A stretch of DNA of 64,000 nt from a phage: sequence record PZ445551.1; one strand, 5' to 3'. The number at the start of each line of letters is the position of its first letter. Position 1 is the stretch's first letter. Positions 42,654-57,332 of this stretch are shown piece after piece. The notes under the pieces are model-generated. The model did not search any database. It saw nothing but the letters and a program-made list of their open reading frames with translations, and was not told the origin of the DNA. Made by a program: the position numbers and the translations under genes.

Positions 42654-43826
42654 ATGACAGCACCAAAATCATGGGAACAATATAAAGAAGAATTAACACC
42701 CCTTGCTAAAAATCACAATATTCAAATCCTGGGTTATGTTGGTGAATGGAAAGGGAACAAGACTAAACTTAAGCTATCTTGCCCTAAACATGGAGAGTGG
42801 AACACCACGAACATTAATGATTTTAAGAAGGGACGTGGTTGTCCTATCTGTTCTGGTAAGAAGCCGTTAACATGGGAAACAGAATTGCCGATCTTGGAAG
42901 AGATAGCACAGAAGAGGGGGTATCAGGTGTTAGGGTACGTGGGAGAATGGAAAGGGAATAAAACAAAACTTGATTTGTTGTGTCATTGTGGTAATAAATG
43001 GGATACTACAAGTATTAACAATTTTAAACGTGGTAGCGGTTGTCCACAATGTAAGAGGGAGAGACAAACAATGTCCGACGATCAACATATTGCAGATTTC
43101 TTTTCTACAGGGGAATTTAAGGAAGGCACTATCTTCACCAATACAGGGAAACGTAACAAGCGTGATGCAGTATGGATGGTTGAGTGTCCTGTTTGCTCCC
43201 ATGATGAATATGTTCAAGCAGGTGTTTGTGATGGTAAATTTTACTCTGCAGGACATAACCTTAAACAAGGGTATATTCCGTGTCGTTGTGGGAACTATCA
43301 GTATACAGAAGACCAGATCACCTATAGGGTAAAAAAGGAAGTAGAAGGGAAAGGGTATGTCTGGGTAGATTGGATTACCAAACCCTCTTCTATAGGTAAG
43401 TTTAAATATCTTTGTCTTGTGCATGGTGAGCAGATAGGGAGTGCTCGTAATTTATTAAGCCTCGGTCAAGGTTGTCCACAGTGTGCTGGTCATAATCAAC
43501 AGCAATTATATATTAATATTGTTAAAGATAATGATATTATAGTTGCCCTTAAGTTTGGTATATCTAAAGATAGCGATAGACGATTAAACGGTCAAAATAG
43601 CCGTAATCTGTTTTTTATGGAGCGTATTTGTTTATATGATTTTAGCACAGTGAAACAATGTAGGGCTGCTGAAAGAGCTATAAAGAAAAAATTAAAAACT
43701 GGTATTTTAACGGCAAGAGAGTTGAAAGATGGTTATACAGAAACAGTAAGTGTTTCTGATTTGGAAAATCTTCAAAAAATTATTACACAATATGGTGGCA
43801 AATTAGTATACAGTAAGGAGATGTAA
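42654..43826 (+). CDS. Protein with three zinc-ribbon-type repeats (GCPxC) and a C-terminal T5orf172/GIY-YIG-like domain
   Basis: Tandem repeats LGYVGEWKGNKTKL...GCPICSG / ...GCPQCK / ...GCPQCAG; C-terminus IVALKFGISKDSDRRL resembles T5orf172. Confidence 0.55.
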   Translation: MTAPKSWEQYKEELTPLAKNHNIQILGYVGEWKGNKTKLKLSCPKHGEWNTTNINDFKKGRGCPICSGKKPLTWETELPILEEIAQKRGYQVLGYVGEWKGNKTKLDLLCHCGNKWDTTSINNFKRGSGCPQCKRERQTMSDDQHIADFFSTGEFKEGTIFTNTGKRNKRDAVWMVECPVCSHDEYVQAGVCDGKFYSAGHNLKQGYIPCRCGNYQYTEDQITYRVKKEVEGKGYVWVDWITKPSSIGKFKYLCLVHGEQIGSARNLLSLGQGCPQCAGHNQQQLYINIVKDNDIIVALKFGISKDSDRRLNGQNSRNLFFMERICLYDFSTVKQCRAAERAIKKKLKTGILTARELKDGYTETVSVSDLENLQKIITQYGGKLVYSKEM

Positions 43827-44378
43827 ATGCGGATTACTGATAAGTATGTGTTCTTCTTCTCGGCAAAAGATGAATTTAGCAACTGGTATCTATCATCTTT
43901 TATTGAACCTTTAGCTCCCAAGTATAATAATTCTATTACAAGTTCTGTTGAATTTACTTGTGTGGAACAATATATGATGTGGAGAAAAGCATGTTTGTTT
44001 TATGATTACAACATTGCATCTTCTATTTTAACCGGAGATCTAAGATATACAGGAGAAAAAGAACAAGCATATTATAAGCGACTAGGCAGATTAGTTAAAG
44101 ATTATGATGAAGATACCTGGACTTCTTTACGGGAGAAGATTGTCAAACGTGGTTTGTATCTTAAATACACACAAAATGAAGATCTCAAAAATAAACTTAT
44201 AGCCTACGCAGATAAGGAGTTCGTAGAGGCAAGCCCTTATGATTCTATTTATGGTATCAAAATGGGGATGTGGGATCGGGACGTGGAAAATAAGGATTGT
44301 TGGAAAGGACAAAATCTTTTAGGAAAATGGCATACAGACCTTGCTGTTTATCTAAAAGCACAATCTGATATTTCCTGA
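43827..44378 (+). CDS. NADAR-domain protein (YbiA-like; candidate DNA ADP-ribosyl-guanine hydrolase)
   Basis: Motifs FFFSAKDEFSNW, CVEQYMMWRKA, W-KGQNLLGKW agree with the NADAR/YbiA pattern; 183 aa. Confidence 0.55.
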   Translation: MRITDKYVFFFSAKDEFSNWYLSSFIEPLAPKYNNSITSSVEFTCVEQYMMWRKACLFYDYNIASSILTGDLRYTGEKEQAYYKRLGRLVKDYDEDTWTSLREKIVKRGLYLKYTQNEDLKNKLIAYADKEFVEASPYDSIYGIKMGMWDRDVENKDCWKGQNLLGKWHTDLAVYLKAQSDIS

Positions 44379-44596
44379 TATTTTGAAAATTTTTATTTTT
44401 ATAAAAAGGGGTGTGGGTTTCATGTACGGAAATTCACCCTCTGCACAGTATATCCAGAGTAAGTAGTATTCTATACCCTGTTAATAAAGTATTTAATTTG
44501 TTTGTTGGACTATGGTATCTGATCTTTAAAAGGCATACTATCTCTTAACTACTACTTATAACAGAACAGTAAAATCATTTTTATAAAAAGTACAAA

Positions 44597-44800
44597 ATTA
44601 TTTAAAGTTTTTACAGATTTTTGGGTACAAATTTTGAAAATGAAAAGTTCAAGTTTGGTCAAAATTATTTAAAGTTTTTGTACGTATTTCTATTCAGATT
44701 TTGAAAATGAAAACTTCAATTTTTTAAAAATTCCCCAGTTTATTTAAAGTTTTTTTGCCTTTTTCCGTAGAAAAATCAAAAATGAAAAGTTCAATTTCGT
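44597..44800. repeat. Three tandem direct repeats (about 65-75 bp units: TATTTAAAGTTTTT ... GAAAATGAAAAGTTCAA)
   Basis: Repeated unit read directly in an AT-rich non-coding stretch. Confidence 0.6.
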
Positions 44801-44817
44801 GTTTTTATAGGTGTGTT

Positions 44818-44928
44818 AATGAGAATCATTTTCGTTTGTAAATGAGAATCATTATCATTTAACTATGTAAGTGATAATCATTCTCAGTAAGAGAATGAGA
44901 ATCCTTAGCAAATGAGAATTTTCTCATT
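44818..44928. promoter_or_regulatory. Cluster of five AATGAGAATCATT / GATAATCATTCTC iteron-like sites (Fur-box-like), including the perfect 18-bp palindrome AATGAGAATTTTCTCATT
   Basis: Repeated half-sites resembling the GATAAT hexamer of the Fur box; non-coding. Confidence 0.45.
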
Positions 44929-45044
44929 TAGAGAATAACGCGCAGGGGTGGTGTTTGTCTCGCGCTCCCGTGTCCCCTCGCCATACAATAAGAATAGCAT
45001 AACCAACAACAAAAGCAAGCGATTATTTTTATCTTTACATTTCT

Positions 45045-45458
45045 TTACAAATTTATTTTAGACGAGCTACCGGCGATCAACCTTCCAACCAGTGCCCCCT
45101 GGTATGTTAGCCCCGCCTTTACGCCGTGGGGGTGGCGCTTCCTCTTCTGTATGTAAAACAGTATAAGCCCGATCCCTGGGCTTGTCAAGATTATTTTTTG
45201 TTTTCTTGCCAGGATAGGACACCTAACCAAAAATACATGTCGCCCCGCGCCCCCTGGTGGGATCTTGCTTTCCCCGCCGCCACTGCAAGCCCATAGATAA
45301 CCATTTGCGAACGTATCAAAATGATCTATTTCTTCCACCTTATGATCGCCCAGGTTGAGAACGGTTTCAACCTTTAAGCCCGTTGCGCTTGCTACCTGGT
45401 GCACCGTGCCGCCTTGCCAGCCTAATGAGTGCATGAGGTGTGAAGTAGTATTTGTCAT
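45045..45458 (-). CDS. Hypothetical ORF inside a GC-rich island (coding status uncertain)
   Basis: 137-aa ORF on the opposite strand from flanking genes; region is visibly GC-richer than its surroundings; no clear SD. Confidence 0.25.
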   Translation of the reverse strand: MTNTTSHLMHSLGWQGGTVHQVASATGLKVETVLNLGDHKVEEIDHFDTFANGYLWACSGGGESKIPPGGAGRHVFLVRCPILARKQKIILTSPGIGLILFYIQKRKRHPHGVKAGLTYQGALVGRLIAGSSSKINL

Positions 45459-45829
45459 GGTATCGCCCTTTCTTTGATGTGTGCCCTGGTTGGCGCGGTA
45501 GAAAGATAATAGCCCTTTCCTTTATAGATAGCAAGCAAAAAAGAAATGAAAAAAAGATTAAAAAAGGGGTTGACGTTCCTCACCTGGTAGCGTATTATTC
45601 ATCTTGTCGAGGGGGGCGAGGCACAACGACAATAAACAAAAGGAGGGCGCAATGTAGGACGGGCAAAGGTGAGGATCTCCACAATCCACCGTCACAATAA
45701 CATTACTTATAAAAGGTTGATAACGATGATCAAGAAAGAAAACAGCTTGACGGTTGGAACGATTAACGCTATCATTTTCGCCGTTCCATTTTGGGTTGTA
45801 GTAGCGGTTATTATCTTTTAAAAATATTC

Positions 45830-45887
45830 TTGACAACGTTTTTTAATCTGATAAGATGTATCACATAGGGCGGCAATAGTGCCGCTC
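45830..45887 (+). promoter_or_regulatory. sigma70-like promoter (TTGACA -35) + 5' GC stem-loop cassette
   Basis: TTGACA at 45830; stem-loop GGGCGGC-aatagt-GCCGCTC; ATG at 45910. Confidence 0.55.
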
Positions 45888-45909
45888 ATAACAGAAGAGA
45901 GAAATAATC

Positions 45910-46182
45910 ATGGCATCATATAGCGCATCAATGATCGTAACGGGCATCACTGGTAAACCTATGCGCGGTGGCGGATCTTTCGCTAACATCAATATTGATG
46001 GGCGTTTATCCCTGGACGCAGCGATCACAGTGGCACGGGAAACGTTTAAAAAAGAATGTAATTTCAATAAACAAGATTATCTCGGTTTCGCTATTGAAAA
46101 AACCGCGCGCTTTGTTGATTATAAAAGCCCGAAAATGGTTGATACTACACTAAAAGCGCAAGATGTAGCATTTTTGCTTTAA
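45910..46182 (+). CDS. Hypothetical early protein
   Basis: 90-aa ORF behind a promoter/stem-loop cassette. Confidence 0.6.
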   Translation: MASYSASMIVTGITGKPMRGGGSFANINIDGRLSLDAAITVARETFKKECNFNKQDYLGFAIEKTARFVDYKSPKMVDTTLKAQDVAFLL

Positions 46183-46185
46183 GGC

Positions 46186-46246
46186 TTGACACTGAAAAAT
46201 AATTTGGTAATATATACTACATAGGGCGGGGAAATGGTTTCCCGCC
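46186..46246 (+). promoter_or_regulatory. sigma70-like promoter + 5' GC stem-loop cassette
   Basis: TTGACA at 46186; stem-loop GGGCGGGG-aaatggttt-CCCGCC; ATG at 46269. Confidence 0.55.
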
Positions 46247-46268
46247 AAATCAAAGAAAGGGTAACACA

Positions 46269-46631
46269 ATGAGCAAGCAAATCAATACTATCATGTTAAA
46301 CCTGGTATCTTTCCGCGATGACGTGAAAAATCTTTCGCGTGATGCAGTGGATGCACGGATCGAAAGCTATCGCTCACAGATCGCAACATTACCGCTAAAA
46401 CGTGATCAACATGCCGCTAATATGATGCTTAATGCTATGCTTAAAAAGATGATTCAATGTGATCTTACCCTGGCTTATGAATATGCTGGCGATCTCTTTG
46501 TAACATACAATAAGCCCGTTCCAGGTATGAGCACAACCGAAGAATTGCATGCCTTAAATCTGCGACAAGATGCATGGGATAATATGCGCCGCGTTATGGT
46601 ATGGGTAGAAAGCGGCAAAATTTACGCATAA
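46269..46631 (+). CDS. Hypothetical early protein
   Basis: 120-aa ORF behind a cassette. Confidence 0.6.
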   Translation: MSKQINTIMLNLVSFRDDVKNLSRDAVDARIESYRSQIATLPLKRDQHAANMMLNAMLKKMIQCDLTLAYEYAGDLFVTYNKPVPGMSTTEELHALNLRQDAWDNMRRVMVWVESGKIYA

Positions 46632-46670
46632 AGGCTTTACATTACACGAAAACCTGATAAGCTATCTTAA

Positions 46671-46690
46671 AGCGGGAATAGTTCCCGCTT
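46671..46690 (+). promoter_or_regulatory. 5' GC stem-loop (GCGGGAA-tag-TTCCCGC); upstream promoter weak or unclear
   Basis: Same class of stem-loop as the other cassettes, about 18 nt before ATG 46708. Confidence 0.4.
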
Positions 46691-46707
46691 TCATAGGATA
46701 AAACTTT

Positions 46708-46854
46708 ATGAAACAATATGTAATGAGTATTCACACCAAAAACGGCGCTACTGTTACGACTCCGGCACGGTTTGCACTTGTAAACCGTTGCAAGAGACTA
46801 AAACGAGAGTTAAAAAATAACCGTGCAACGGGCTTTAAACGCTGGGGAGGATAA
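46708..46854 (+). CDS. Small basic protein (48 aa, below the ORF-track threshold)
   Basis: ATG 46708 directly after the stem-loop; Lys/Arg-rich; hand-translated. Confidence 0.45.
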   Translation: MKQYVMSIHTKNGATVTTPARFALVNRCKRLKRELKNNRATGFKRWGG

Positions 46855-46856
46855 TC

Positions 46857-47117
46857 TTGTTTTTTCTAAAAGTTTTTGATAATGTGATCGCTTTTGAACA
46901 TGCTACAACGTTCGACCTAGCGAGATACGCTATCAGGTTTAAAGATAATGTTTATCCCCGTGCTGGAGGCGGTTACACTATTTTTAATCATCGTAACGCT
47001 CAATTAACGGATATAACTAATCCAGATCCTGGAGTGTATCGCATAGGCTGGCTACCGTCAAAAGACGCGGCAAGCATGTTTAAGGTGTGTAAACTACTAA
47101 CAGAAGAGGCAAATTAG
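46857..47117 (+). CDS. Hypothetical early protein (TTG start)
   Basis: 86-aa ORF; SD GGGGAGG 5 nt upstream of TTG. Confidence 0.5.
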   Translation: MFFLKVFDNVIAFEHATTFDLARYAIRFKDNVYPRAGGGYTIFNHRNAQLTDITNPDPGVYRIGWLPSKDAASMFKVCKLLTEEAN

Positions 47118-47118
47118 C

Positions 47119-47664
47119 ATGGGGCGTGAGTATGTGATCCAGTCCTGGGTAAAGCATGACGCTAATGATCCGCGCATAATACCAGATGACATGATCGATC
47201 ACATGGTAGGGTATAGCGGGGAGCAGATAGGAAATCGAGCGGCAAAGAGCAACGGCAACACAAAGGCGCGATCCGTTCGCCCTGGTTGGCTGGCAAATGG
47301 TAACGCTGACATTGCAAGCGCCGCAGATCCAAGCGATGACGCTAAAAATAATCCCTTATACAGCATTGATCCGGCTTTTAAGGTGTTAGAAGAGTATCCC
47401 GCTAAATTAGCCGCACTAGATAAGGCATACGAAGAAAAGCGCATGGCATGGACGGTATACAACACCGCTAAAATGGTGCTAGATGCAAAATTGATTAAAG
47501 CCCAGGAGAAGATCAATAAACTTGTTGCAGTAGCGCAAGAGGAAGACCAGGAGGAAGAGGAAGAAATCATGCCTACCCTGGAAGAGGAAGAGATCCAGCC
47601 ATACATGCCGACGGAAGAGGAAAAAAGACAAGCCCTAAAAAATTATGAAAATTGCATTGTGTAA
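47119..47664 (+). CDS. Hypothetical early protein with strongly acidic C-terminus
   Basis: 181-aa ORF; C-terminal QEEDQEEEEEIMPTLEEEE. Confidence 0.6.
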   Translation: MGREYVIQSWVKHDANDPRIIPDDMIDHMVGYSGEQIGNRAAKSNGNTKARSVRPGWLANGNADIASAADPSDDAKNNPLYSIDPAFKVLEEYPAKLAALDKAYEEKRMAWTVYNTAKMVLDAKLIKAQEKINKLVAVAQEEDQEEEEEIMPTLEEEEIQPYMPTEEEKRQALKNYENCIV

Positions 47665-47667
47665 GGC

Positions 47668-47723
47668 TTGACATATGCAAACAAGCCCCGTAATATGTAC
47701 CACATAAAGCGGGGCAACGCCCC
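47668..47723 (+). promoter_or_regulatory. sigma70-like promoter (TTGACA...TAATAT) + GC stem-loop GGGGC-aac-GCCCC
   Basis: Boxes and stem-loop read directly. Confidence 0.5.
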
Positions 47724-47745
47724 ATAAGGTGAAATAAAAAATCAC

Positions 47746-47773
47746 TTGACACCTGAAATCAGTAAGCTATAAT
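47746..47773 (+). promoter_or_regulatory. Consensus sigma70 promoter (TTGACA-N16-TATAAT)
   Basis: Exact -35 and -10 hexamers with a 16-nt spacer, 37 nt upstream of ATG 47811. Confidence 0.65.
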
Positions 47774-47810
47774 GCTTATATAGATTGAAACATTACTAAG
47801 GAATAAAAGC

Positions 47811-47990
47811 ATGGCTATTATTGCAAAAACTGAGATCGTAGGTTTAGATTCTATCATCCTGGCATATGAGGAAGCTATAGAAATGTATGTAGTGACCTAT
47901 GGTGATTATGTGCGTGAATACGAATACATTGATCTTGCTTTCGAATGTTACATTCGCCAGGTCAATAAAGCCTATGATGATTATCGTTAA
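47811..47990 (+). CDS. Small hypothetical protein (59 aa, below the ORF-track threshold)
   Basis: ATG 47811 after SD AAGGAATAA; hand-translated to TAA at 47988-47990. Confidence 0.5.
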   Translation: MAIIAKTEIVGLDSIILAYEEAIEMYVVTYGDYVREYEYIDLAFECYIRQVNKAYDDYR

Positions 47991-48085
47991 AAGTTTTAGT
48001 CTTGTGCTATTGACAACGAACGATAGTACAAGCATAATAACTTTTATCGGGAATACTCCTAACTAATCAAAAGAGATTAAAGACT

Positions 48086-48451
48086 ATGGCTAAAAATATC
48101 AATGTTTCTGCTTATGCTACCCTGGCTAACACTGCTAAAATTGAACTATCCAGCATTGAAGCGGTACATATTAGCGCCCGTCGCTGGTTTCAAAAGTCTT
48201 ATGGTAATACTTATTTCTCTTTGATGGTTGACGTTGAGATCGGCGGTAAACTGATTGAAGTCGTTAACGTTCCGTTTCACTATGGCTACGGGGATCATTT
48301 TGATACCGTTGCCCTAGAAGAGTTTAGCAAGGTTGTCAACCTGGAAGGTAAAGAGTTTTCAAATTATGCCTACCTTTCCCGTTTTTGCCGTGATAATGGG
48401 ATCGCTGTATACAGTCATGCAAGCGATGTTAAACGTAAAAAAGATTTATAA
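48086..48451 (+). CDS. Hypothetical early protein
   Basis: 121-aa ORF. Confidence 0.6.
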   Translation: MAKNINVSAYATLANTAKIELSSIEAVHISARRWFQKSYGNTYFSLMVDVEIGGKLIEVVNVPFHYGYGDHFDTVALEEFSKVVNLEGKEFSNYAYLSRFCRDNGIAVYSHASDVKRKKDL

Positions 48452-48457
48452 AAAGCA

Positions 48458-48516
48458 TTGACAGCACGAATAAAAAGCATATAATACTTATATCGAGAGC
48501 GGGAATAGTTCCCGCC
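48458..48516 (+). promoter_or_regulatory. Consensus sigma70 promoter (TTGACA-N16-TATAAT) + 5' stem-loop GCGGGAA-tag-TTCCCGC
   Basis: Boxes and stem-loop read directly; ATG at 48541. Confidence 0.6.
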
Positions 48517-48540
48517 TCACTGAAAAAAGAGATTAACATC

Positions 48541-48780
48541 ATGGCTAAATCTAAAATGTTCTTAGGTCACAAAAACAAAACTCATTGGAATGTAAGCCTT
48601 TGGATCAACAACGATGAAGGTTTTTATAATCTTGCGCGTGAATTTATCGCAGCTAACACCAATAAGAATGACGCAGCGCGTGATATGATGTTATTTCTTG
48701 AAAGTATGGATCAAGATAAAACGCCAGACGGTTACAAGTTCAGTAAAACTGCGATCCGCGCCGCGATGGTTGGAATGTAA
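48541..48780 (+). CDS. Hypothetical early protein
   Basis: 79-aa ORF. Confidence 0.55.
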   Translation: MAKSKMFLGHKNKTHWNVSLWINNDEGFYNLAREFIAANTNKNDAARDMMLFLESMDQDKTPDGYKFSKTAIRAAMVGM

Positions 48781-48885
48781 AGGAGACATAAAAATGAAAC
48801 ATCGTTCGACCTATCTCACAAAACGTTTTAGCTTAGATCATAAATTGGGCTATTACGGAAGAAATAGAAAATAATTTGACACTGT

Positions 48886-48935
48886 TTAAAATTCTGGTAT
48901 AGTTTATCACATAGGGCGGGAAATGGTTTCCCGCC
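48886..48935 (+). promoter_or_regulatory. sigma70-like promoter + 5' GC stem-loop cassette
   Basis: TTGACA at 48886; -10 TATAGT; stem-loop GGGCGGG-aaatggttt-CCCGCC; ATG at 48958. Confidence 0.55.
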
Positions 48936-48957
48936 AAATGAAAGAAAGGTTATCATT

Positions 48958-49185
48958 ATGGCTATCGTTATTGTTCGCGTATCCGGCACGGTTGGAATCT
49001 CCCAGGTAGTAGCAGTTATCACCGAGAAGAAAGGGGATGATCTTCACTCTTCCTTGAATAGCTGGGCGGTCGCTAACTTCGGGCAATGGTCGAGCGTTGA
49101 GTACATCGAATCCTACCAGGTGCCAACGATTAGCCTAACCGATCTAAATGTTGATCGCTTGTTGTGCCTGGATCAATTAAACTAA
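48958..49185 (+). CDS. Hypothetical early protein
   Basis: 75-aa ORF. Confidence 0.55.
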   Translation: MAIVIVRVSGTVGISQVVAVITEKKGDDLHSSLNSWAVANFGQWSSVEYIESYQVPTISLTDLNVDRLLCLDQLN

Positions 49186-49193
49186 AAATAATA

Positions 49194-49252
49194 TTGACAA
49201 GATAACTAAAATCAGTAAAATGTAATGCATAGGGCGGCAATAGTGCCGCTCC
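49194..49252 (+). promoter_or_regulatory. sigma70-like promoter + 5' GC stem-loop cassette
   Basis: TTGACA at 49194; -10 TAAAAT; stem-loop GGGCGGC-aatagt-GCCGCTC. Confidence 0.55.
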
Positions 49253-49272
49253 TAGTGAGAGAGATTATCAAG

Positions 49273-49488
49273 ATGGCTAATATCCGCACACTGTTAAAAA
49301 ATGCAAGTCAAGTTTTATTTTCAGATGACGAGTATTTCAACAAAGACATTACAGGCGTGAAAAATTTAAAAGACGTGAAGGATGTTATCGGTATTCGTGG
49401 ATCTTTACGTAAAGGTGACATATACGGTAACAAGGTGCAATATAAACTGTCAAAAGATTATGATTTTACTTTGACATTTATTTCATAA
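49273..49488 (+). CDS. Hypothetical early protein
   Basis: Start at ATG 49273 (MANIRTL) downstream of the stem-loop; 71 aa. Confidence 0.55.
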   Translation: MANIRTLLKNASQVLFSDDEYFNKDITGVKNLKDVKDVIGIRGSLRKGDIYGNKVQYKLSKDYDFTLTFIS

Positions 49489-49494
49489 AACCGC

Positions 49495-49555
49495 TTGCAA
49501 TACTACAAAAATAAAGTAAACTGTATTCATCAAGGCGGTGGAATAGCCCACCGCC
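49495..49555 (+). promoter_or_regulatory. Promoter-like boxes (TTGCAA...TAAACT) + stem-loop GGCGGTGG-aatagc-CCACCGCC
   Basis: Perfect 8-bp stem; promoter boxes are weaker than in the other cassettes. Confidence 0.45.
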
Positions 49556-49579
49556 TAACAAAGAGAAGAGGAAAACATC

Positions 49580-49750
49580 ATGATCACTTTTGCTACCCGT
49601 GAAGCCGCTCGCAACGTTGCACGTAAAGTTAACGCCGCCAACCTGGGCGCTACGCTTAAAGCCCCGGTAAAAGATGAATCAGGGAAATGGATCTTCCCTG
49701 GTCTGCGTCACGCTGATAAGCTGGGAACATTAACGTTAAAAAATAAATAA
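49580..49750 (+). CDS. Small hypothetical protein (56 aa, below the ORF-track threshold)
   Basis: ATG 49580 after SD GAGAAGAGGAAAA; hand-translated. Confidence 0.45.
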   Translation: MITFATREAARNVARKVNAANLGATLKAPVKDESGKWIFPGLRHADKLGTLTLKNK

Positions 49751-49757
49751 TATCCGC

Positions 49758-49816
49758 TTGACAGTAGCATGATTTATAAGTAAAGTAACAACAACGGCGG
49801 GAAATGGTTTCCCGCC
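49758..49816 (+). promoter_or_regulatory. sigma70-like promoter + 5' GC stem-loop cassette
   Basis: TTGACA at 49758; stem-loop GGCGGG-aaatggttt-CCCGCC; ATG at 49837. Confidence 0.55.
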
Positions 49817-49836
49817 ATCAATAAAGAGATAAGATT

Positions 49837-50196
49837 ATGAAATCAGTAAAAGCAATTAAAACTTACATTTTGTCGGCTATTTCTTTTGATGGTACTACAA
49901 CCGAAAAAGAAAAAATCACCGAACTGATGCGCCGTTTTAACTCTGAATACTGGTATCCCGATAATCAAAAACGTTACAATTATAACGTGATTAAGGCGAT
50001 AGCCTCATGGTTACAAGGTTTACCGTCAGAAATCAATATTGCTTTTGATTATAACGAGATCGATCACTTGTTAATTGAATGGAAGTACATAAAAGAAACA
50101 AGCAAAGAAACAACCGTTACCCGTGAGCGGGAAAATTATTGGTTATATATTGCAAGCATGATCGTAATCCTGGCAAAACAGCATAACGTGGCGTAA
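49837..50196 (+). CDS. Hypothetical early protein
   Basis: 119-aa ORF. Confidence 0.6.
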   Translation: MKSVKAIKTYILSAISFDGTTTEKEKITELMRRFNSEYWYPDNQKRYNYNVIKAIASWLQGLPSEINIAFDYNEIDHLLIEWKYIKETSKETTVTRERENYWLYIASMIVILAKQHNVA

Positions 50197-50211
50197 TTAA
50201 GAGGAAGAAAC

Positions 50212-50349
50212 ATGAACGCATCACAGCAGATCGAAAAATTCAACCGCAGCAAGGCGCGTAAAGATTGGAACGAAGAGATCACCAAAAAAGGCGACAAGCG
50301 GAACAAAACAAAGAGAGATCGCAGCACAAAAAGATACTGGAACGAATAA
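50212..50349 (+). CDS. Small basic protein (45 aa, below the ORF-track threshold)
   Basis: ATG 50212 after SD AAGAGGAAG; Lys/Arg-rich; followed by a terminator. Confidence 0.45.
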   Translation: MNASQQIEKFNRSKARKDWNEEITKKGDKRNKTKRDRSTKRYWNE

Positions 50350-50351
50350 CA

Positions 50352-50378
50352 AAAAGGGCGCAATAAGCGCCCTTTTAG
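50352..50378 (+). terminator. Rho-independent terminator (GGGCGC-aataa-GCGCCC + TTTT)
   Basis: Perfect stem followed by a T run. Confidence 0.6.
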
Positions 50379-50466
50379 CTTATATAGAGGCTTGTTACCC
50401 ATAGGCAATGGTAACGCCAGGATAAGCCTATAAACCACGTTAGACAGCTTTACAGGAGCTTTAAAA

Positions 50467-50649
50467 ATGAAATTAGACGAAATAAGCAAGGCACTAGCCC
50501 AGGGGCAAAGGTTATGCGCCCGATATCGTGATCAATATGGCTTCATAACTAGCGGCGTGATCCTGGGGATTGAAGGCAATAAGATTTTTATTGACACGTT
50601 GAAAAACGTTGTATATAGTGACAATATAATCTCAATAAAACATATATGA
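50467..50649 (+). CDS. Hypothetical small protein
   Basis: 60-aa ORF; SD AGGAG upstream. Confidence 0.5.
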   Translation: MKLDEISKALAQGQRLCARYRDQYGFITSGVILGIEGNKIFIDTLKNVVYSDNIISIKHI

Positions 50650-50657
50650 GGCAAGAA

Positions 50658-51059
50658 ATGAAAAAATTATTGATCGCTGGTTTAATCTCTTTTGGCATGG
50701 TTGGAACATCTAGCGCGGCGATATCCTCCACAGTAGCAGAATTAAGCGCCGTTGATGCAATGGAAAACGTCATGCTTATTAATAACGCGATCCCCGATGA
50801 AATCATGGAGGATTCACACATGATCGCTTATGGTGCTGTTACACAACTAACGGCAAAAATAGATAAATCTATTGTTAACGGCTTAAATGAAGATGTGCCA
50901 TGTGAAATTATTACCAGTGTGCTGACTACTCAAAATTTTACGCCGTGGTTAAAAAGTATTCAAAAAGTACACAGTACAGCCGCAGATCGTAGCAATGAAA
51001 AACTAGTGTCAGCACTTGCAACGTATACCCTAGCAAAATGCACCGAGATAAAAGATTGA
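50658..51059 (+). CDS. Secreted / periplasmic hypothetical protein
   Basis: Signal peptide MKKLLIAGLISFGMVGTSSA; start at ATG 50658. Confidence 0.55.
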   Translation: MKKLLIAGLISFGMVGTSSAAISSTVAELSAVDAMENVMLINNAIPDEIMEDSHMIAYGAVTQLTAKIDKSIVNGLNEDVPCEIITSVLTTQNFTPWLKSIQKVHSTAADRSNEKLVSALATYTLAKCTEIKD

Positions 51060-51084
51060 CAACATAGAAAGCACGTTATAAGAT
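51056..51084 (+). promoter_or_regulatory. sigma70-like promoter (TTGACA-N17-TAAGAT), no stem-loop
   Basis: Hexamers read directly upstream of ATG 51107. Confidence 0.45.
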
Positions 51085-51106
51085 ACACACAACAAAGGAG
51101 AACTAC

Positions 51107-51409
51107 ATGAACGGCATAGCTAAAACGTTTTTTCTTTTTTCTGGTGTAAATGATCCATCAATAAAAGTCGATAGTGTAAAAGAAAACAATACTATCACCG
51201 CTAAATTGTTTCAAGATGAAACAAATAACGTGCTAATCATTAATCTTAAAGAAGTAACTAAAGGTTATTATACTATTGCTTACCATGCGATTTATCATGC
51301 TGGTACTAGTGAGGAAGTGCAAACAAGCAACAACGAAAGCGCGGCGCTACCTGGTGATCTGGTGCTGGGCGTTATCAGTTTAATTGTCAATGATTTTTTT
51401 AAGGAGTAA
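51107..51409 (+). CDS. Hypothetical protein
   Basis: 100-aa ORF; SD AAAGGAG. Confidence 0.55.
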   Translation: MNGIAKTFFLFSGVNDPSIKVDSVKENNTITAKLFQDETNNVLIINLKEVTKGYYTIAYHAIYHAGTSEEVQTSNNESAALPGDLVLGVISLIVNDFFKE

Positions 51410-51738
51410 AACCATGCCCTATTTACATTTATTTTTCGGTATCTTATTGACAGGATCTTTTTTCTTCTGTATGCTTGTTTCTATTGTAAACCACGTTTTA
51501 AGACATTAAGGAAACAGCATGAAAATTATTCCCGTACAATATAGCGTAATAAATCCAGCATACGAGGAAGGAAGGAAAACAAGCATGGCTTTATGTTGTA
51601 TTGCTACTATAGCCATGTTGTTATATATTGTGTTTTAATAGGTTTTATAGTTGTACGCTTTAAGGGCTTGACAATTTTTTGTTATGCTTTAAACTATATC
51701 TTGAAAACGGCAAAGGCCGCAAACAAAAGGGTAAAATT

Positions 51739-52062
51739 ATGAAATCTGTGATCGGTGTTTATTTGGATAACTCTGATTTTTTCTATCATCGCGCTCGTTT
51801 CCTTGATGCGATTGAAATGATAGAATCAGGCTTTAAAGAGTATCGCCTTGCACATGATGACCTGGAAGCATTACAGGGCAATAGTGTTTTTACATTGCAA
51901 GCTAAAGCACTATGCAAAAGCCGGATCGACATTGCGAGCAAAAAGATAGAACGCGGCATGTCCTGGTTGCGCACCGCAGAAATCAACATGGGGCAATGGT
52001 ACGGCGAAAACTTAGAAAATAAACATACTTTTGTCAATGTAGAAAATATTGAAGATTATTGA
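51739..52062 (+). CDS. Hypothetical protein
   Basis: Start at ATG 51739 (MKSVIGV); TTGACA at 51668 upstream; 107 aa. Confidence 0.55.
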   Translation: MKSVIGVYLDNSDFFYHRARFLDAIEMIESGFKEYRLAHDDLEALQGNSVFTLQAKALCKSRIDIASKKIERGMSWLRTAEINMGQWYGENLENKHTFVNVENIEDY

Positions 52063-52125
52063 TTGACAGCACACCTAACGGGTAGTATATTGTATCTCAT
52101 AGAGCGGGGAAATGGTTTCCCCGCC
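52063..52125 (+). promoter_or_regulatory. sigma70-like promoter + 5' GC stem-loop cassette
   Basis: TTGACA at 52063; -10 TATATT; stem-loop GAGCGGGG-aaatggttt-CCCCGCC. Confidence 0.55.
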
Positions 52126-52144
52126 TTAAAAGAAGAGATAAGCT

Positions 52145-52429
52145 ATGAAGATCACAAAAGCACTTTCCAACTATGCAGCACGTCGCGGATTATGTTTAAC
52201 CGTTGAAAATTTAGGGAAAGAAGATTTTTTGTGCTTTTGGGAGCTTGAGAATGATAATGAGTGGATCTTCTCTTATTCTATCTGCGAAGATCAAAACGGT
52301 TGTTTATTAACCTGGCGCGGTAATATCTATTTACCGGAAGAAATCAAAGAAGAATTACCAGGCACGATCATGACTGAGAAACAGCTTAAGGAAGTGATCA
52401 ATTTTGTAGGGCAAAACATTAAAAAATAA
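52145..52429 (+). CDS. Hypothetical early protein
   Basis: 94-aa ORF. Confidence 0.55.
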   Translation: MKITKALSNYAARRGLCLTVENLGKEDFLCFWELENDNEWIFSYSICEDQNGCLLTWRGNIYLPEEIKEELPGTIMTEKQLKEVINFVGQNIKK

Positions 52430-52430
52430 T

Positions 52431-52489
52431 TTGACACTAGGCAAACAACGTAGTAAAGTTTATCACATAGGGCGGCAATAGTGCCGCTC
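52431..52489 (+). promoter_or_regulatory. sigma70-like promoter + 5' GC stem-loop cassette
   Basis: TTGACA at 52431; -10 TAAAGT; stem-loop GGGCGGC-aatagt-GCCGCTC. Confidence 0.55.
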
Positions 52490-52510
52490 ATAACAGAAGA
52501 GAAACAAATC

Positions 52511-52681
52511 ATGATCCCGACTATGTTTTATGTATCGCGCAAAGGTCACAATATTTTTTGGTCTGAAGATTTAAATGAAGCTATGACGTTTGCCCGTGAT
52601 CGTGTCGCTATCGGTGGCGTTAACATCACTGTAACCGATGAAAACGGCATTGAATACTATAACGGCGACGATGAAGAGTAA
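52511..52681 (+). CDS. Small hypothetical protein
   Basis: Start at ATG 52511 downstream of the stem-loop; 56 aa. Confidence 0.5.
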   Translation: MIPTMFYVSRKGHNIFWSEDLNEAMTFARDRVAIGGVNITVTDENGIEYYNGDDEE

Positions 52682-52688
52682 TCAACAA

Positions 52689-52706
52689 GGCGGGATTAAT
52701 CCCGCC
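52689..52706 (+). promoter_or_regulatory. GC stem-loop GGCGGGAT-ta-ATCCCGCC preceding a small ORF
   Basis: Perfect palindrome; no clear promoter hexamers upstream. Confidence 0.35.
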
Positions 52707-52725
52707 TGTATTAAAGGGTAATATA

Positions 52726-52863
52726 ATGAAAACTTTCAACGCAACAGCCTCGACAATTGGTTATATTATTACAGTGCAAGCCGTTGACCTGGTAGCGGCA
52801 GCAAACAAGATTAAAAAGATGATCCCAACAGGCAGCGAATTTTCCGTTTGGGAAGTAAAATAA
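52726..52863 (+). CDS. Small hypothetical protein (45 aa, below the ORF-track threshold)
   Basis: ATG 52726 after AAAGGGTAATATA; hand-translated. Confidence 0.4.
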   Translation: MKTFNATASTIGYIITVQAVDLVAAANKIKKMIPTGSEFSVWEVK

Positions 52864-52866
52864 ATC

Positions 52867-52924
52867 TTGACAATAGTTTATTACTTGATAGAATGTATTT
52901 CGTAGGGCGGCAATAGTGCCGCTC
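52867..52924 (+). promoter_or_regulatory. sigma70-like promoter + 5' GC stem-loop cassette
   Basis: TTGACA at 52867; -10 TAGAAT; stem-loop GGGCGGC-aatagt-GCCGCTC. Confidence 0.55.
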
Positions 52925-52945
52925 ACAACTAAAAGAGAAATCATC

Positions 52946-53140: not shown

Positions 53141-53141
53141 T

Positions 53142-55112: not shown

Positions 55113-55113
55113 C

Positions 55114-55817: not shown

Positions 55818-55893
55818 AAATGATAATCATTCTTATTTATAGCTGATTATTTATGCAATAAACTGAATAATGCAATAATGATAATCATTCTTA
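55818..55893. promoter_or_regulatory. Two Fur-box-like sites (AATGATAATCATTCTTA)
   Basis: Two copies, each matching most of the E. coli Fur consensus GATAATGATAATCATTATC. Confidence 0.45.
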
Positions 55894-56250
55894 ACTTATG
55901 ACCATCTAACCTATAAAATAATAAGTTATCTAACTAAATTAAAACTAATTATCTCACCTTTATTTATAACTTACTGTTACTATCTCATTGATAACCTTAT
56001 ATTAAACAACAATAACCAATATAAATCATTACTAAGCTAAATATAATCTATCTAACCTTTAAAACTATAACTATAATCTATCGAATTGTTGCACAAAGTA
56101 ACTATTAAATTGTTAGTAACATTACTAAATAATTAATATCCTATCTATTTATGATCTAATCTTTATCTTCCTATCTATTACCTAAATAATCATTTCATAC
56201 AGTAATCATTTCATACAATAATTATAACAAGAAATATAATTCGCAAGCGT

Positions 56251-56430: not shown

Positions 56431-56756
56431 ATGTTTAGAACATTGGCTATAATATAAGCTAAGTAATAAGCTATGCAATAATAAACATGGTGAATAATGA
56501 CATTGATGATCATAATGCGCCACCTTCCAGGGGGCGCTATGTGAACACAAAGAAATCTTTCTTGTCAAGAAAAAATATTGCCATTATTGCGCAAAATTAT
56601 TTATATCTGAATAGATGATTTTTCATACTATTGCCCCATATAACATACCTCATTTGTTGAGCATAGTTATAGCCTATTTGTTGAGCCTACTTTCTTAAAA
56701 GCGCAATAAATCAGAATTATCTTGATTTTTAGTCTGTTTTATAGTATAGAAAGTAT

Positions 56757-56778
56757 GCAAATGATAATCATTATCAGC
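56757..56778. promoter_or_regulatory. Fur-box-like site containing AATGATAATCATTATC (16/16 match to consensus positions 4-19)
   Basis: Direct match to the canonical Fur box core. Confidence 0.5.
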
Positions 56779-56940
56779 TATCTTCCACGGGTAGCACTAT
56801 TTCACGCCAGATCATTTCATTTGGCAAGGTGTATATAGATGTTTAGACTTGCCAAGCCATTGATTTACTTAGAATTTATCTGTTTTGTTGTGAGTAGAGC
56901 CTTTCTTGCTCAGAAAATAATCAAAAGTCTTATAAGTCAT

Positions 56941-56976
56941 TGAATGATAATGCAAATGATAATTATTCTCATTGAT
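56941..56976. promoter_or_regulatory. Fur-box-like repeats (TGAATGATAATGCAAATGATAATTATTCTCATTGAT)
   Basis: Tandem GATAAT-type hexamers. Confidence 0.4.
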
Positions 56977-57332
56977 ATTTGAGGGGGACGGTCGGCAGAA
57001 ATCGGGGGGCGCTGAAAATCGCGTTAAGCACCTCTCGCAAGCGAGCAGTATTTTGCGGCAAGTTATTGATATTATTGGCTTTACGCTTATGAAAAGGGGG
57101 TGTGTCGAAATAAATCGGGTATACCGGAAAATTTTTGTGGCATAGATATTTATTTGTCTATATTATGTACAAAAGGGTGTGTTAAAAATATTAGGTATAT
57201 ATAGAATAATTGATAGGGAAATCCTATACTAATTCCTCCATTAATGATGTTTCTATGTTACTGTTCTTGTAACAGATGAAAAGACGCTGTATGATGTGTG
57301 GCATGAAACGTAAATTTATAAAGGAGTCTGAT

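What the first reader, a model, noticed from the sequence alone, without database searches (positions are those of the whole stretch)
44818..44928. Fur-box-like iteron cluster upstream of the early-gene array
Five closely spaced sites built from GAGAAT/GATAAT hexamers, including the perfect palindrome AATGAGAATTTTCTCATT, resemble the E. coli Fur box (GATAATGATAATCATTATC). They lie in a non-coding stretch, and a second cluster of better-matching boxes lies at 55.8-57.0 kb, so the two clusters bracket the early-gene array. Possible roles: iron- or Fur-responsive control of phage genes, titration of host Fur, binding sites for a phage regulator, or origin iterons.
Basis: partly seen in the sequence, partly recalled or inferred. 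Interest (0 to 1): 0.6.

Follow-up and report, generated by a model that had tools for sequence, protein, structure and literature searches.

The report
Host Fur-box arrays in a lytic phage
A virulent E. coli phage of the phi92/rV5 group carries conserved clusters of DNA sites indistinguishable from the binding sites of the host's iron sensor Fur, in two gene-free control regions (one probably the genome's terminal repeat), which suggests that these phages read or manipulate the host's iron status.

Summary
Window 44818-44928 holds four 19-bp boxes and one 18-bp box of the type AATGA(G/T)AAT-N-ATT(C/A)TCATT. A second set lies at 55819-56973.

A Fur matrix learned only from eight E. coli Fur-controlled promoters puts 10 of its 11 best hits in the 146-kb phage genome into these two clusters. 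Four hits score above 20 bits, against 0.01 expected. In the reverse test, a matrix built from the phage boxes finds ryhB, fecI, entC, fhuA, fecA, cirA, entS and fepA promoters in 170 kb of E. coli DNA.

The boxes sit at fixed positions in 15 lineages inspected, from two subfamilies plus unclassified Klebsiella and Aeromonas phages. A search with the module they belong to matches 362 phage records. The boxes persist while the neighbouring AT-rich repeats have diverged beyond recognition.

They do not overlap the strong early promoters. Cluster 1 abuts a deeply conserved non-coding unit. Two box pairs of cluster 2 lie inside the inferred 342-bp terminal repeat.

Most likely the host's iron-loaded Fur binds these arrays. 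This would make transcription at or through the two hubs iron-dependent, and replicated phage genomes would also soak up Fur. No binding experiment exists, and I found no prior description.

The parts
44577..44797 (.). Three AT-rich direct repeats of 67-75 nt (GC about 20%), immediately left of the box array. Each has ATTATTTAAAGTTTTT...GATTTTGAAAATGAAAAGTTCAA.
   Evidence: family D1; GC 0.19-0.23. Repeats are present at the same place in relatives, but with unrelated sequence in Vequintavirinae.
44818..44836 (.). Fur-type box 1, AATGAGAATCATTTTCGTT
   Evidence: 21.4 bits with the E. coli-derived Fur matrix.
44841..44859 (.). Fur-type box 2, AATGAGAATCATTATCATT
   Evidence: 24.3 bits, the best site in the genome. 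Authentic E. coli operators score 20-27 bits.
44870..44888 (.). Fur-type box 3, AGTGATAATCATTCTCAGT (perfect 15-nt core)
   Evidence: 14.3 bits. 0 mismatches to TGAKAATNATTMTCA.
44891..44912 (.). Fur-type box 4, GAGAATGAGAATCCTTAGCAAA (two direct hexamers plus a degenerate inverted one)
   Evidence: 12.5 bits. 4 mismatches to the classical 19-mer. Relatives have CATTAGC here and score 17.5 bits.
44911..44928 (.). Box 5, AATGAGAATTTTCTCATT. This is an 18-mer, one T short of the 19-mer found in phi92, Eryne and PD06. Its position is fixed at -40 from the block A core in all lineages.
44929..44982 (.). Fixed spacer TAGAGAATAA (NNGAATRR in relatives) followed by block A (CGCGCAGGGG..GGTGTTTGTCTCGCG..CCCCTCGCC). 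Together with box 5 this is the most conserved non-coding piece of the region.
   Evidence: No Rfam family matches. RNA folding and covariation are inconclusive.
45067..45149 (.). Block B, the second conserved GC-rich non-coding block (CTACCGGCGATC ... GGTGGCGCTTCCTCTTCTG). One stem shows a compensatory change: CCCC/GGGG becomes CCAA/TTGG in Erwinia phage pEa56.
45160..45188 (-). Sigma-70 promoter TTGACA-17-TATACT pointing left, through block B and block A towards the boxes
   Evidence: 11 of 12 positions. The hexamers are kept in seven further lineages inspected despite different spacers (TTGACA/TATAAT, TTGCAA/TATAGT, TTGACG/TACAAT, TTGACA/CATAAT, TTGACA/CACAAT). Several of those hexamer assignments were read by eye.
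45570..45857 (+). Three strong sigma-70 promoter-like sites in front of the small-gene block 45910-55600. None overlaps a box.
   Evidence: 10 of 12 positions each.
55819..55895 (.). Cluster 2, left pair of boxes: 55819 AATGATAATCATTCTTATT and 55877 AATGATAATCATTCTTAAC. They lie 215-270 bp after the terminator-like hairpin at 55587-55605.
   Evidence: 22.1 and 15.1 bits. Hairpin. phAPEC8 has an equivalent box.
56684..57025 (.). Inferred direct terminal repeat (342 bp), that is, the physical genome ends
   Evidence: The BME3 paper reports a 342-bp repeat determined with PhageTerm. The first and last 342 nt of the BME3 record are identical and map to window 57025..56684. The VEcB and Klebsiella phi1_175008 records end at these same two positions. 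This is inferred by homology and was not shown for this phage.
56754..56778 (.). Two overlapping Fur-type sites in 6-bp register, TATGCAAATGATAATCATTATCAGC, inside the inferred terminal repeat
   Evidence: 15.2 bits each. Perfect 7-1-7 core. phAPEC8 has an equivalent site scoring 20.3 bits.
56943..56973 (.). Hexamer array GATAATGCAAATGATAATTATTCTCATT: two overlapping sites in 6-bp register, inside the inferred terminal repeat
   Evidence: 23.5 and 15.1 bits. phAPEC8 carries an identical box although its flanks have diverged.

Best explanation
These are operator-grade binding sites for the host's iron sensor Fur, kept by selection in two non-coding control hubs of the phage genome.

Proposed mechanism: as soon as phage DNA is in an iron-replete cell, Fe2+-loaded Fur dimers occupy the sites. 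They would cover about 110 bp at 44818-44928 and two double sites inside the inferred terminal repeat. Bound Fur would then act as a steric block to RNA polymerase. At cluster 1 that would stop the conserved leftward non-coding transcript, which starts at the 45188->45160 promoter, from running into the AT-rich repeats. It might also silence a weak rightward start embedded in the last box. When iron is scarce, Fur leaves and transcription at or through the hubs changes. Activity of these hubs would therefore be coupled to host iron status. As the genome is replicated, roughly ten strong sites per copy would also soak up Fur and derepress the host's iron-uptake genes.

Shown here: the sites exist, match Fur as well as the best host operators, are confined to the two hubs, and are conserved in position across subfamilies.

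Inferred: that Fur binds them in vivo, that it acts as a block to RNA polymerase, and which transcripts are affected.
For: Motif equivalence:
- A matrix from 21 phage boxes, scanned over 170 kb of E. coli K-12, places 9 of its 11 best hits in eight known Fur-controlled intergenic regions. Those regions total only 1.6 kb.
- De novo expectation-maximisation on those eight E. coli regions, with no phage input, converges on AATGATAATCATTATCATT.
- That matrix puts 10 of its 11 top hits in the 146-kb phage genome into the two clusters. Four hits score 21-24 bits, the same range as authentic operators at 20-27 bits.
- The two matrices correlate at r = 0.958.
- Sites in 6-bp register match the clustering rule reported for E. 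coli Fur (PMC2189734).

Evidence of selection:
- Boxes sit at -40, -69, -98 and -127 from the block A core in Phapecoctavirus and KP2025-like phages. They sit at -40, -57, -81, -110 and -133 in Justusliebigvirus.
- A box is present at -40 in Seunavirus, Henunavirus, Certrevirus, Vequintavirus, a Klebsiella phage and an Aeromonas phage.
- A search with this module (one box plus blocks A and B) matches 362 phage records.
- phAPEC8 and SSE121 keep boxes in their second non-coding hub although the flanks are only about 70% identical or unalignable.
- The adjacent AT-rich repeats differ completely between subfamilies while the box does not. That fits a binder supplied by the host.

Other points:
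- tblastn finds no Fur homologue in the phage (E > 2).
- High-copy DNA carrying one Fur box is enough to derepress a Fur-controlled reporter in E. coli (the FURTA assay, PMC3145626).
Against: - No binding, footprint or expression data exist.
- The boxes do not overlap any strong sigma-70 promoter.
- The only candidate promoter embedded in a box, TTGAAT-18-CAGAAT, is weak. Its -10 lacks the A at position 2 in several lineages.
- The regulated transcript is therefore unidentified. Neither strand of blocks A and B shows convincing RNA covariation.
- These phages plaque on iron-replete media, so Fur cannot be shutting off anything essential.
- The phage boxes prefer GAGAAT (G 0.58, T 0.38 at that position) where the E. 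coli set prefers GATAAT (T 0.60, G 0.19). A phage protein with a slightly shifted specificity is not excluded.
- The E. coli matrix rests on only eight regions.
Confidence: 0.5

Rival explanations
1. Fur decoy as the primary function. The boxes are not cis-regulators of phage transcription. They are a sink: replicated genomes, at about ten strong sites each, titrate Fur. That would derepress host iron uptake and RyhB, and supply iron for phage enzymes such as the di-iron ribonucleotide reductase.
For: - The sites are operator-grade.
- They do not overlap promoters.
- Titration by multicopy Fur boxes is an established effect (PMC3145626).
- The phage encodes NrdA and NrdB (annotation).
- From memory, unverified: E. 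coli has on the order of 100 Fur-bound regions and 5,000-10,000 Fur monomers. A hundred or more phage genomes would therefore outnumber the host sites.
Against: - A pure sink needs no fixed positions. Yet the last box keeps an exact 11-nt spacing to block A in the 15 lineages inspected's 362 matches, and boxes keep their places in the terminal repeat.
- Seunavirus and Henunavirus have one box in cluster 1, and SSE121 only a few more in its second hub. That makes a weak sink.
- A lytic cycle leaves little time for newly expressed uptake systems to deliver iron.
Confidence: 0.15
2. The boxes are sites for a phage-encoded DNA-binding protein, such as a replication initiator, a packaging or end-binding protein, or a regulator. 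That protein's specificity happens to resemble, or mimics, the Fur box. Cluster 1, with its adjacent AT-rich repeats and an inward-pointing promoter, would be a lambda-like origin.
For: - There are arrays of 4-5 dyad-symmetric 19-bp sites at 23-29 bp spacing, next to a 220-bp stretch of about 20% GC, with a strong promoter firing towards it.
- Two box pairs lie in the inferred terminal repeat, where packaging signals are expected.
- The preference for GAGAAT over GATAAT is consistent.
Against: - No Fur-like protein is found in the phage, and the neighbouring small genes have no recognisable DNA-binding family.
- gp224, the only nearby gene, is absent from SSE121 and pEa56, which keep the box.
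- The box is a single copy in three lineages.
- The site has not drifted between subfamilies whose other non-coding repeats are unrecognisable.
- Fur-specific details are reproduced: 6-bp register, GCAAAT hexamers and A/T flanks.
- DnaA boxes are not enriched.
Confidence: 0.2
3. The palindromes act as RNA or DNA hairpins, for example as bidirectional terminators at a zone of convergent transcription, and bind no protein.
For: - Each box can form an 8-bp hairpin.
- Cluster 1 lies between the end of the rightward operon (44378) and the end of the leftward non-coding unit.
- Boxes 55819 and 55877 follow the end of the early block.
Against: - Conservation is of sequence, not of pairing. Many boxes are asymmetric (GAGAAT paired with ATTATC...CATTCTTATT), which would break the stem.
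- No compensatory changes are seen.
- The stems are AT-rich with only 2 G-C pairs and lack proper U-tracts.
Confidence: 0.05
4. Host Fur is used as an architectural factor for DNA transactions rather than for transcription. Possible roles are arresting or staging DNA entry, bridging the two terminal repeats, or gating replication by iron. This would be analogous to the DnaA boxes of the phage T5 injection-stop region.
For: - Cluster 1 lies about 12.1 kb (8.3% of the genome) from the inferred right end. The small-gene block between them is transcribed towards that end.
- T5-like phages keep eight DnaA boxes in a conserved untranslated repeat region at 7.9% of the genome, proposed to stop injection (bioRxiv 10.1101/866236).
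- Boxes lie in both copies of the inferred terminal repeat.
Against: - The argument is purely positional.
- The terminal repeat is 342 bp, not the roughly 10 kb of T5.
- No two-step injection is known for these myoviruses.
- The direction of DNA entry is unknown.
- The T5 model is itself a hypothesis.
Confidence: 0.07

Closest known systems
E. coli Fur operators (ryhB, fhuA, fecI, fepB-entC, cirA)
   Same: - Same 19-bp dyad AATGAKAATNATTMTCATT.
- Same score range, 20-27 bits.
- The same GAGAAT/ATTCTC half-sites occur in ryhB (AATAATAATCATTCTCATT), fhuA and fecI.
- Both show overlapping sites in 6-bp register (PMC2189734).
   Different: - Host operators overlap the -35/-10/+1 of a promoter for an iron-related gene.
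- The phage sites lie in gene-free DNA and overlap no strong promoter.
- They form spaced arrays of 4-5 sites at 23-29 bp.
- Some lie inside the inferred terminal repeat.
Fur boxes in front of cargo genes of temperate phages (sitABCD in lambdoid coliphages; stx1, from memory)
   Same: A phage genome carrying a host-type Fur box, so that expression joins the host Fur regulon (PMC6969025).
   Different: - Those are single operators at the promoters of bacterial-type accessory genes in prophages.
- Here the phage is strictly lytic (no integrase among the annotated genes; no check was made here).
- The boxes are in core non-coding architecture conserved across subfamilies, not next to an iron gene.
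DnaA-box arrays in the injection-stop (iss) untranslated region of T5-like phages
   Same: - A conserved set of binding sites for a host DNA-binding protein.
- Both sit in a large, repeat-rich, untranslated region of a virulent coliphage.
- Both lie about 8% of the genome length from a terminus.
- Both are better conserved than the neighbouring genes (bioRxiv 10.1101/866236).
   Different: - A different host protein: DnaA rather than Fur.
- A different phage family and tail type.
- The T5 region lies inside a 10-kb terminal repeat, whereas the repeat here is 342 bp.
- The function is unproven in both.
Lambda-type origin iterons
   Same: Several dyad-symmetric sites of about 19 bp in tandem, next to an AT-rich stretch, with a nearby promoter firing towards them.
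   Different: - Iterons are bound by a replicon-encoded initiator and differ between related replicons.
- Here the site equals the host Fur box, is invariant across subfamilies, is a single copy in some lineages, and has no identified initiator.
Fur titration by multicopy Fur-box DNA (FURTA)
   Same: Many copies of a strong Fur box in one cell derepress the Fur regulon (PMC3145626). A replicating phage genome with about ten boxes should do the same.
   Different: FURTA is a laboratory artefact of plasmids. A natural, selected use by a virus has not been described in the literature searched.

Membership tests
Host Fur operator (Fur box) | 19-bp dyad matching GATAATGATAATCATTATC, or the 7-1-7 core TGATAATNATTATCA | tested here: met
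   Four sites have 0 mismatches and two have 1 mismatch to TGAKAATNATTMTCA. Site 56757 is 2 mismatches from the classical 19-mer.
Host Fur operator (Fur box) | Scores like authentic operators under a matrix learned independently from host Fur-controlled promoters, and the reverse test also holds | tested here: met
   Phage sites score 21-24 bits against 20-27 bits for host operators. 10 of the top 11 genome hits fall in the clusters. The phage matrix recovers 8 of 8 host Fur-controlled regions among its top hits. Matrix correlation r = 0.958.
Host Fur operator (Fur box) | Sites clustered or overlapping in a 6-bp register (hexamer arrays) | tested here: met
   Pairs 56754/56760, 56949/56955 and 55871/55877, and the hexamer run at 44891. 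The rule is from PMC2189734.
Host Fur operator (Fur box) | Overlap with the -35, -10 or +1 of a promoter that Fur represses | tested here: inconclusive
   No strong sigma-70 site overlaps a box. Only a weak TTGAAT-18-NAGAAT is embedded in the last box, and not in all lineages.
Host Fur operator (Fur box) | Metal-dependent binding of Fur in vitro or in vivo, and iron- or fur-dependent expression | not testable with these tools
   Needs EMSA or footprinting, FURTA, ChIP, and RNA-seq in fur-deleted hosts.
Replication-origin iterons | Three or more tandem copies in every member of the replicon family | tested here: not met
   There are 4-5 copies in Justusliebigvirus, Phapecoctavirus and Certrevirus, but one copy in SSE121, pEa56 and Aeromonas phage PhAER-4.
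Replication-origin iterons | Adjacent AT-rich unwinding region | tested here: met
   44550-44800 has GC 0.19-0.23 and carries three direct repeats.
Replication-origin iterons | A replicon-encoded initiator that binds the repeats, with the sites co-varying with the replicon | tested here: not met
   No candidate binder was found. The box sequence is invariant across subfamilies while the neighbouring repeats diverge. Absence of a binder is a weak negative.
T5-type injection-stop region | A conserved untranslated repeat region carrying host-factor boxes about 8% from a genome end | tested here: met
   The non-coding region 44380-45900 lies 12.1 kb (8.3%) from the inferred right end and carries conserved Fur-type boxes. 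Comparator.
T5-type injection-stop region | Location within a long terminal repeat that carries pre-early genes, and two-step DNA transfer | tested here: not met
   The terminal repeat is 342 bp and gene-free. Two-step transfer is not testable here.
Known RNA family (Rfam) for the adjacent conserved blocks | Match to a curated covariance model | tested here: not met
   No hit at gathering score in the window, and only noise at E > 0.2 in 44300-46000.

The most novel reading that the evidence does not exclude
rV5/phi92-like lytic phages have co-opted the host iron sensor Fur as a structural part of their own non-coding genome architecture. Fe-Fur bound at the terminal repeats and at an internal hub would act as an iron checkpoint on a DNA transaction such as staged genome entry, end bridging or circularisation, origin firing or packaging. 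It would not act as an ordinary repressor. This would be a Fur counterpart of the DnaA-box injection-stop region proposed for T5.
Probability: 0.12. Interest if true: 0.85.

Novelty: new variant of a known kind. Interest (0 to 1): 0.62.

Why it matters
Fur boxes are textbook elements, and single Fur-controlled cargo genes are known in prophages. A conserved set of operator-grade Fur sites in the core non-coding architecture of a large group of strictly lytic phages has not been described in the literature I could search. That architecture probably includes the terminal repeat.

These phages (phi92, phAPEC8, rV5, PVP-SE1 and relatives) are widely used as therapy and biocontrol candidates. They work in the gut, urine and blood, where iron is limiting and Fur is switched off.

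If Fur binds, infection dynamics would depend on host iron status. Infection would also rewire the host iron regulon. Both predictions can be tested within days using existing reagents: Fur protein, the FURTA strain, Keio fur mutants and iron chelators.

The work also marks out two conserved non-coding hubs whose function is unknown. Candidates include an origin, a small RNA or the genome ends.

Tried and rejected
- **Published Fur site lists.** I looked for them in PMC2189734, but the sequences are in supplements that are not held. I derived the matrix from fetched E. coli DNA instead.
- **gp224 as the binder.** This is the minus-strand ORF 45045-45458. It has no Pfam family and only function-unknown PHROGs. 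It is absent from SSE121 and pEa56, which keep the box. Rejected.
- **Neighbouring small proteins.** The 27 proteins tested have no DNA-binding or iron-related family.
- **Rfam.** Nothing.
- **RNA structure of blocks A and B.** On either strand the covariation term is about 0. Z-scores of the terminal hairpin range from -2.0 to +0.8. Inconclusive.
- **Host origin of the conserved blocks.** There is no match in 5,426 E. coli genomes. Similarity to the ryhB locus is limited to the Fur box itself.
- **DnaA boxes.** Not enriched.
- **The AAAAGGGGTGTG motif** seen at both hubs. Not enriched.
- **Extra copies of the block A core.** None in the window.
- **Widening the sequence set.** IMG/VR and metagenome scans added only nine true homologues.
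- **Fur as a host factor in published screens.** A large phage-host screen preprint does not mention fur.
Full report
**Identity of the window.** The window is 100% identical to Escherichia phage VivaForever (PP925843.1, minus strand). It is 96-99% identical to phi92, alia, JohannJBalmer and other Justusliebigvirus members. This genus belongs to the Stephanstirmvirinae, lytic myoviruses of about 146 kb. I rebuilt the whole genome from the window plus three fetched pieces.

**The observation.** Positions 44818-44928 hold five boxes:
- 44818 AATGAGAATCATTTTCGTT
- 44841 AATGAGAATCATTATCATT
- 44870 AGTGATAATCATTCTCAGT
- 44894 AATGAGAATCCTTAGCAAA, with a further GAGAAT at 44891
- 44911 AATGAGAATTTTCTCATT

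The last box is not a perfect palindrome. It has 8-nt arms around TT. It is also one base shorter than the 19-mer found at the same place in phi92, Eryne and a PD06-like contig.

The stretch is non-coding. It lies between a NADAR/YbiA-like gene ending at 44378 and the small + strand genes starting at 45910. The only ORF in between is a short minus-strand one, homologous to phi92 gp224.

The second cluster is real as well: 55819, 55877, 56754/56760 and 56949/56955.

**Is the motif Fur-like, and is it more than chance?** I avoided a consensus recalled from memory. Instead I fetched 170 kb of E. coli K-12 around the ent/fep, fhu, fec, cirA and ryhB loci and ran three tests.

1. A matrix built from 21 phage boxes places 9 of its 11 best hits in this E. 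coli DNA inside eight known Fur-controlled intergenic regions. Those regions add up to only 1.6 kb. The best hit is the ryhB promoter, AATAATAATCATTCTCATT.
2. A palindromic expectation-maximisation run on those eight regions alone converged from all of the best-scoring seeds printed on AATGATAATCATTATCATT. The authentic operators score 20-27 bits under it.
3. That host-only matrix, scanned over the 146-kb phage genome, puts 10 of its 11 best hits into the two clusters. Four hits score 21.4-24.3 bits. Expected counts in Markov-1 shuffles are 0.01 at 20 bits or more and 0.34 at 15 bits or more, against 4 and 9 observed.

Two further checks agree:
- Shuffling only the local AT-rich DNA gives 0.04 and 0.08 expected hits, against 4 and 6 observed.
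- The two matrices correlate at r = 0.958.

The sites also reproduce finer Fur traits. They occur as overlapping pairs in 6-bp register, the clustering rule reported for E. coli Fur (PMC2189734). They carry GCAAAT flanking hexamers, as in the fepA and cirA sites. They carry GAGAAT half-sites, as in the ryhB, fhuA and fecI sites.

**Conservation.** A distant-mode search showed that the best-conserved part of the region in remote phages is the last box plus the GC-rich DNA to its right.

I inspected 15 lineages. All share the same layout, in this order:
1. three or four AT-rich direct repeats
2. one to five Fur-type boxes
3. a fixed spacer of about 11 nt (NNGAATRRCG)
4. a conserved block A (CGGGCAGG...GGTG(A/T)TTGTCTC...)
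5. in most lineages, a second block B
6. a sigma-70 promoter pointing back towards the boxes

Box positions relative to the block A core:

| Lineage | Box positions |
|---|---|
| Phapecoctavirus and KP2025-like phages | -40, -69, -98, -127 (29-bp steps) |
| Justusliebigvirus | -40, -57, -81, -110, -133 |

Box number in the other lineages:

| Lineage | Boxes |
|---|---|
| Seunavirus SSE121 | one perfect box, AATGAGAATCATTCTCATT |
| Erwinia phage pEa56 | one perfect box, same sequence |
| Aeromonas phage PhAER-4 | one box, AATGATAATCATTCGCATT |
| Certrevirus P7_Pc | four |
| Klebsiella phage Iguana | two |
| Vequintavirus naam | two tandem modules |

A search with the SSE121 module matches 362 phage records.

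The AT-rich repeats next to the boxes are unrelated in sequence between subfamilies, whereas the box is constant. This is what one expects if the binder is a host protein shared by all these hosts. It is less expected for a co-evolving phage protein.

The second hub behaves the same way. phAPEC8 keeps boxes at the three equivalent places, one of them identical to the window's, although the flanks are about 70-76% identical. SSE121 has boxes of 19.6 and 16.0 bits in its own second long non-coding region, 8.5 kb downstream.

**Context: cluster 1.** The strong sigma-70 promoter-like sites in front of the small-gene block lie at 45570, 45747 and 45830. They do not overlap any box.

The strongest promoter in the region is on the minus strand: TTGACA-17-TATACT at 45188->45160. 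Its hexamers are kept in the seven other lineages in which I looked for it, although the spacers differ. It transcribes leftwards through block B and block A and reaches the boxes after about 220 nt.

A rightward promoter embedded in the last box (TTGAAT-18-CAGAAT) is weak at best. It is not conserved in Stephanstirmvirinae.

Further findings on blocks A and B:
- Neither block is a known RNA family.
- Neither strand shows convincing covariation, apart from one compensatory CCCC/GGGG to CCAA/TTGG change in block B.
- The blocks have no counterpart in 5,426 E. coli genomes.

**Context: cluster 2.** The BME3 paper reports direct terminal repeats of 342 bp, determined with PhageTerm (PMC12210895). 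The first and last 342 nt of the BME3 record are identical. They map to window 57025..56684. The VEcB and Klebsiella phi1_175008 records end at exactly these two positions.

By homology, then, the physical ends of this genome lie at about 56684 and 57025. The two double boxes at 56754-56778 and 56943-56973 lie inside the terminal repeat. Boxes 55819 and 55877 lie about 0.8 kb outside it, just after the terminator-like hairpin that closes the small-gene block.

No strong sigma-70 site was found in this 1.7-kb non-coding region. Cluster 1 is about 12.1 kb, or 8.3% of the genome, from the inferred right end.

**Who binds?**
- The neighbouring genes are ORFans in Pfam and PHROGs.
- gp224 is missing from lineages that keep the box.

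Sites of this quality entering a cell that contains active Fur should be occupied. This is the basis of the Fur titration assay, in which a single box on a high-copy plasmid derepresses fhuF::lacZ (PMC3145626).

I therefore consider host Fur the most likely binder. This is an inference, not a demonstration.

**Mechanism, with its limits.** The sites are not at the early promoters. They sit at boundaries of non-coding units. I therefore favour Fe-Fur acting as a steric block to RNA polymerase at or through the two hubs, making them iron-responsive. Fur titration by replicated genomes would be an unavoidable second effect.

The rivals, in order of weight:
- A phage-encoded binder, acting as origin iterons or a packaging signal.
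- A pure Fur decoy.
- A Fur-dependent DNA transaction analogous to the DnaA-box injection-stop region proposed for T5 (bioRxiv 10.1101/866236).
- Simple hairpins. This last rival is disfavoured because the sequence is conserved, not the pairing.

**Novelty.** Searches of the paper library returned three kinds of result:
- Fur boxes in front of the sit operon of lambdoid prophages.
- Other papers on bacterial Fur regulons or on unrelated phages.
- The rV5 genome paper, which shows a "non-coding" box but does not mention Fur.

Fur sites as such are ordinary. Their conserved placement in the non-coding core, and probably the terminal repeat, of a large group of lytic phages is a new variant. It is directly testable.

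**Caveats.**
- The host matrix rests on eight regions.
- The terminal repeat is inferred from relatives.
- Transcript starts and ends are predictions.
- Statements about Fur copy number and the number of host Fur sites come from memory.

Noticed in passing
window 44577-44797: Three AT-rich direct repeats of 67-75 nt lie just left of the boxes. Each contains a small dyad (TTGAAAATGAAAACTTCAA). Relatives have 3-4 repeats at the same place but with unrelated sequence, for example CTCGATCG..TTTTCGATTTCAAAATCG..GAAAAAATTTTTC in Vequintavirinae. These are better candidates than the boxes for sites of a phage-specific protein.
   Followed up: partly
window 44929-45188: A deeply conserved non-coding unit comprises block A (invariant GGTGTTTGTCTCGCG core), a TTTACA-N4-TTTACA repeat, block B, and a conserved leftward sigma-70 promoter. 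It may be a phage small RNA of about 220 nt. It has no Rfam family and no homologue in E. coli genomes. Vequintavirus naam carries two shorter tandem copies of the module, each ending at a Fur-type box.
   Followed up: partly
window 56684-57025: The inferred 342-bp direct terminal repeat (the genome ends) lies inside the window. The BME3 record has identical 342-nt ends mapping here, and the VEcB and Klebsiella phi1_175008 records end at the same positions. The 'DTR-L' feature in the BME3 record is offset by 73 nt from the true redundancy. The BME3 right end also carries an extra 585-nt partial duplicate of window 56266-56822.
   Followed up: partly
window 56497-56986: Three copies of a 37-nt unit consist of a Fur-like box, about 12 nt, and then CCAGGGG, CACGGG or GAGGGG. 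They start at 56497, 56755 and 56950. The first copy has a degenerate box (9.9 bits).
   Followed up: no
window 55900-56440: An extremely AT-rich stretch has about eight ATCTATC/TATCTAA-type short repeats and a tandem 16-mer (TAATCATTTCATACA, twice). It is followed by a GC-richer segment with a perfect 15-nt inverted repeat (56283-56297 and 56414-56428). Part of it (56220-56374) is conserved in Phapecoctavirus.
   Followed up: no
window 45045-45458 (minus strand): This ORF reads 137 aa here but 88 aa in phi92 (gp224, phrog_19316, function unknown). The extra C-terminal part runs through block B, where relatives differ by 1-2-nt changes in C/G runs. That part is unlikely to be coding.
   Followed up: partly
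window 44911-44928: A one-base length polymorphism in the T-run of the last box (TTTT here and in two metagenomic contigs, TTTTT in phi92, Eryne and PD06) changes the half-site spacing of an otherwise conserved box.
   Followed up: partly
phage records MG065645.1, MG065659.1 and MG065682.1: Several records named 'Campylobacter phage' (A145, C5, A112b) are 84-99% identical to these E. coli phage regions. They probably carry a mislabelled host or come from contaminating coliphages.
   Followed up: no
L017 3861 and L018 19740 (E. coli K-12, yeiS-preT and yrhD-yrhB intergenic regions): Two high-scoring Fur-type sites in E. coli lie outside the eight reference regions: ATTGAGAATAATTATTACT at 19.6 bits and AATAATATTTATTATAATT at 14.8 bits, both under the phage-derived matrix. 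I did not check whether they are known Fur targets.
   Followed up: no
window 42654-44378 and 55188-55571: The genes flanking the hubs are a CapR/HNH-type endonuclease (42654-43826), a NADAR (YbiA-like) protein (43827-44378) and a homologue of T4 gp30.8 (55188-55571). All other small genes tested are ORFans.
   Followed up: no
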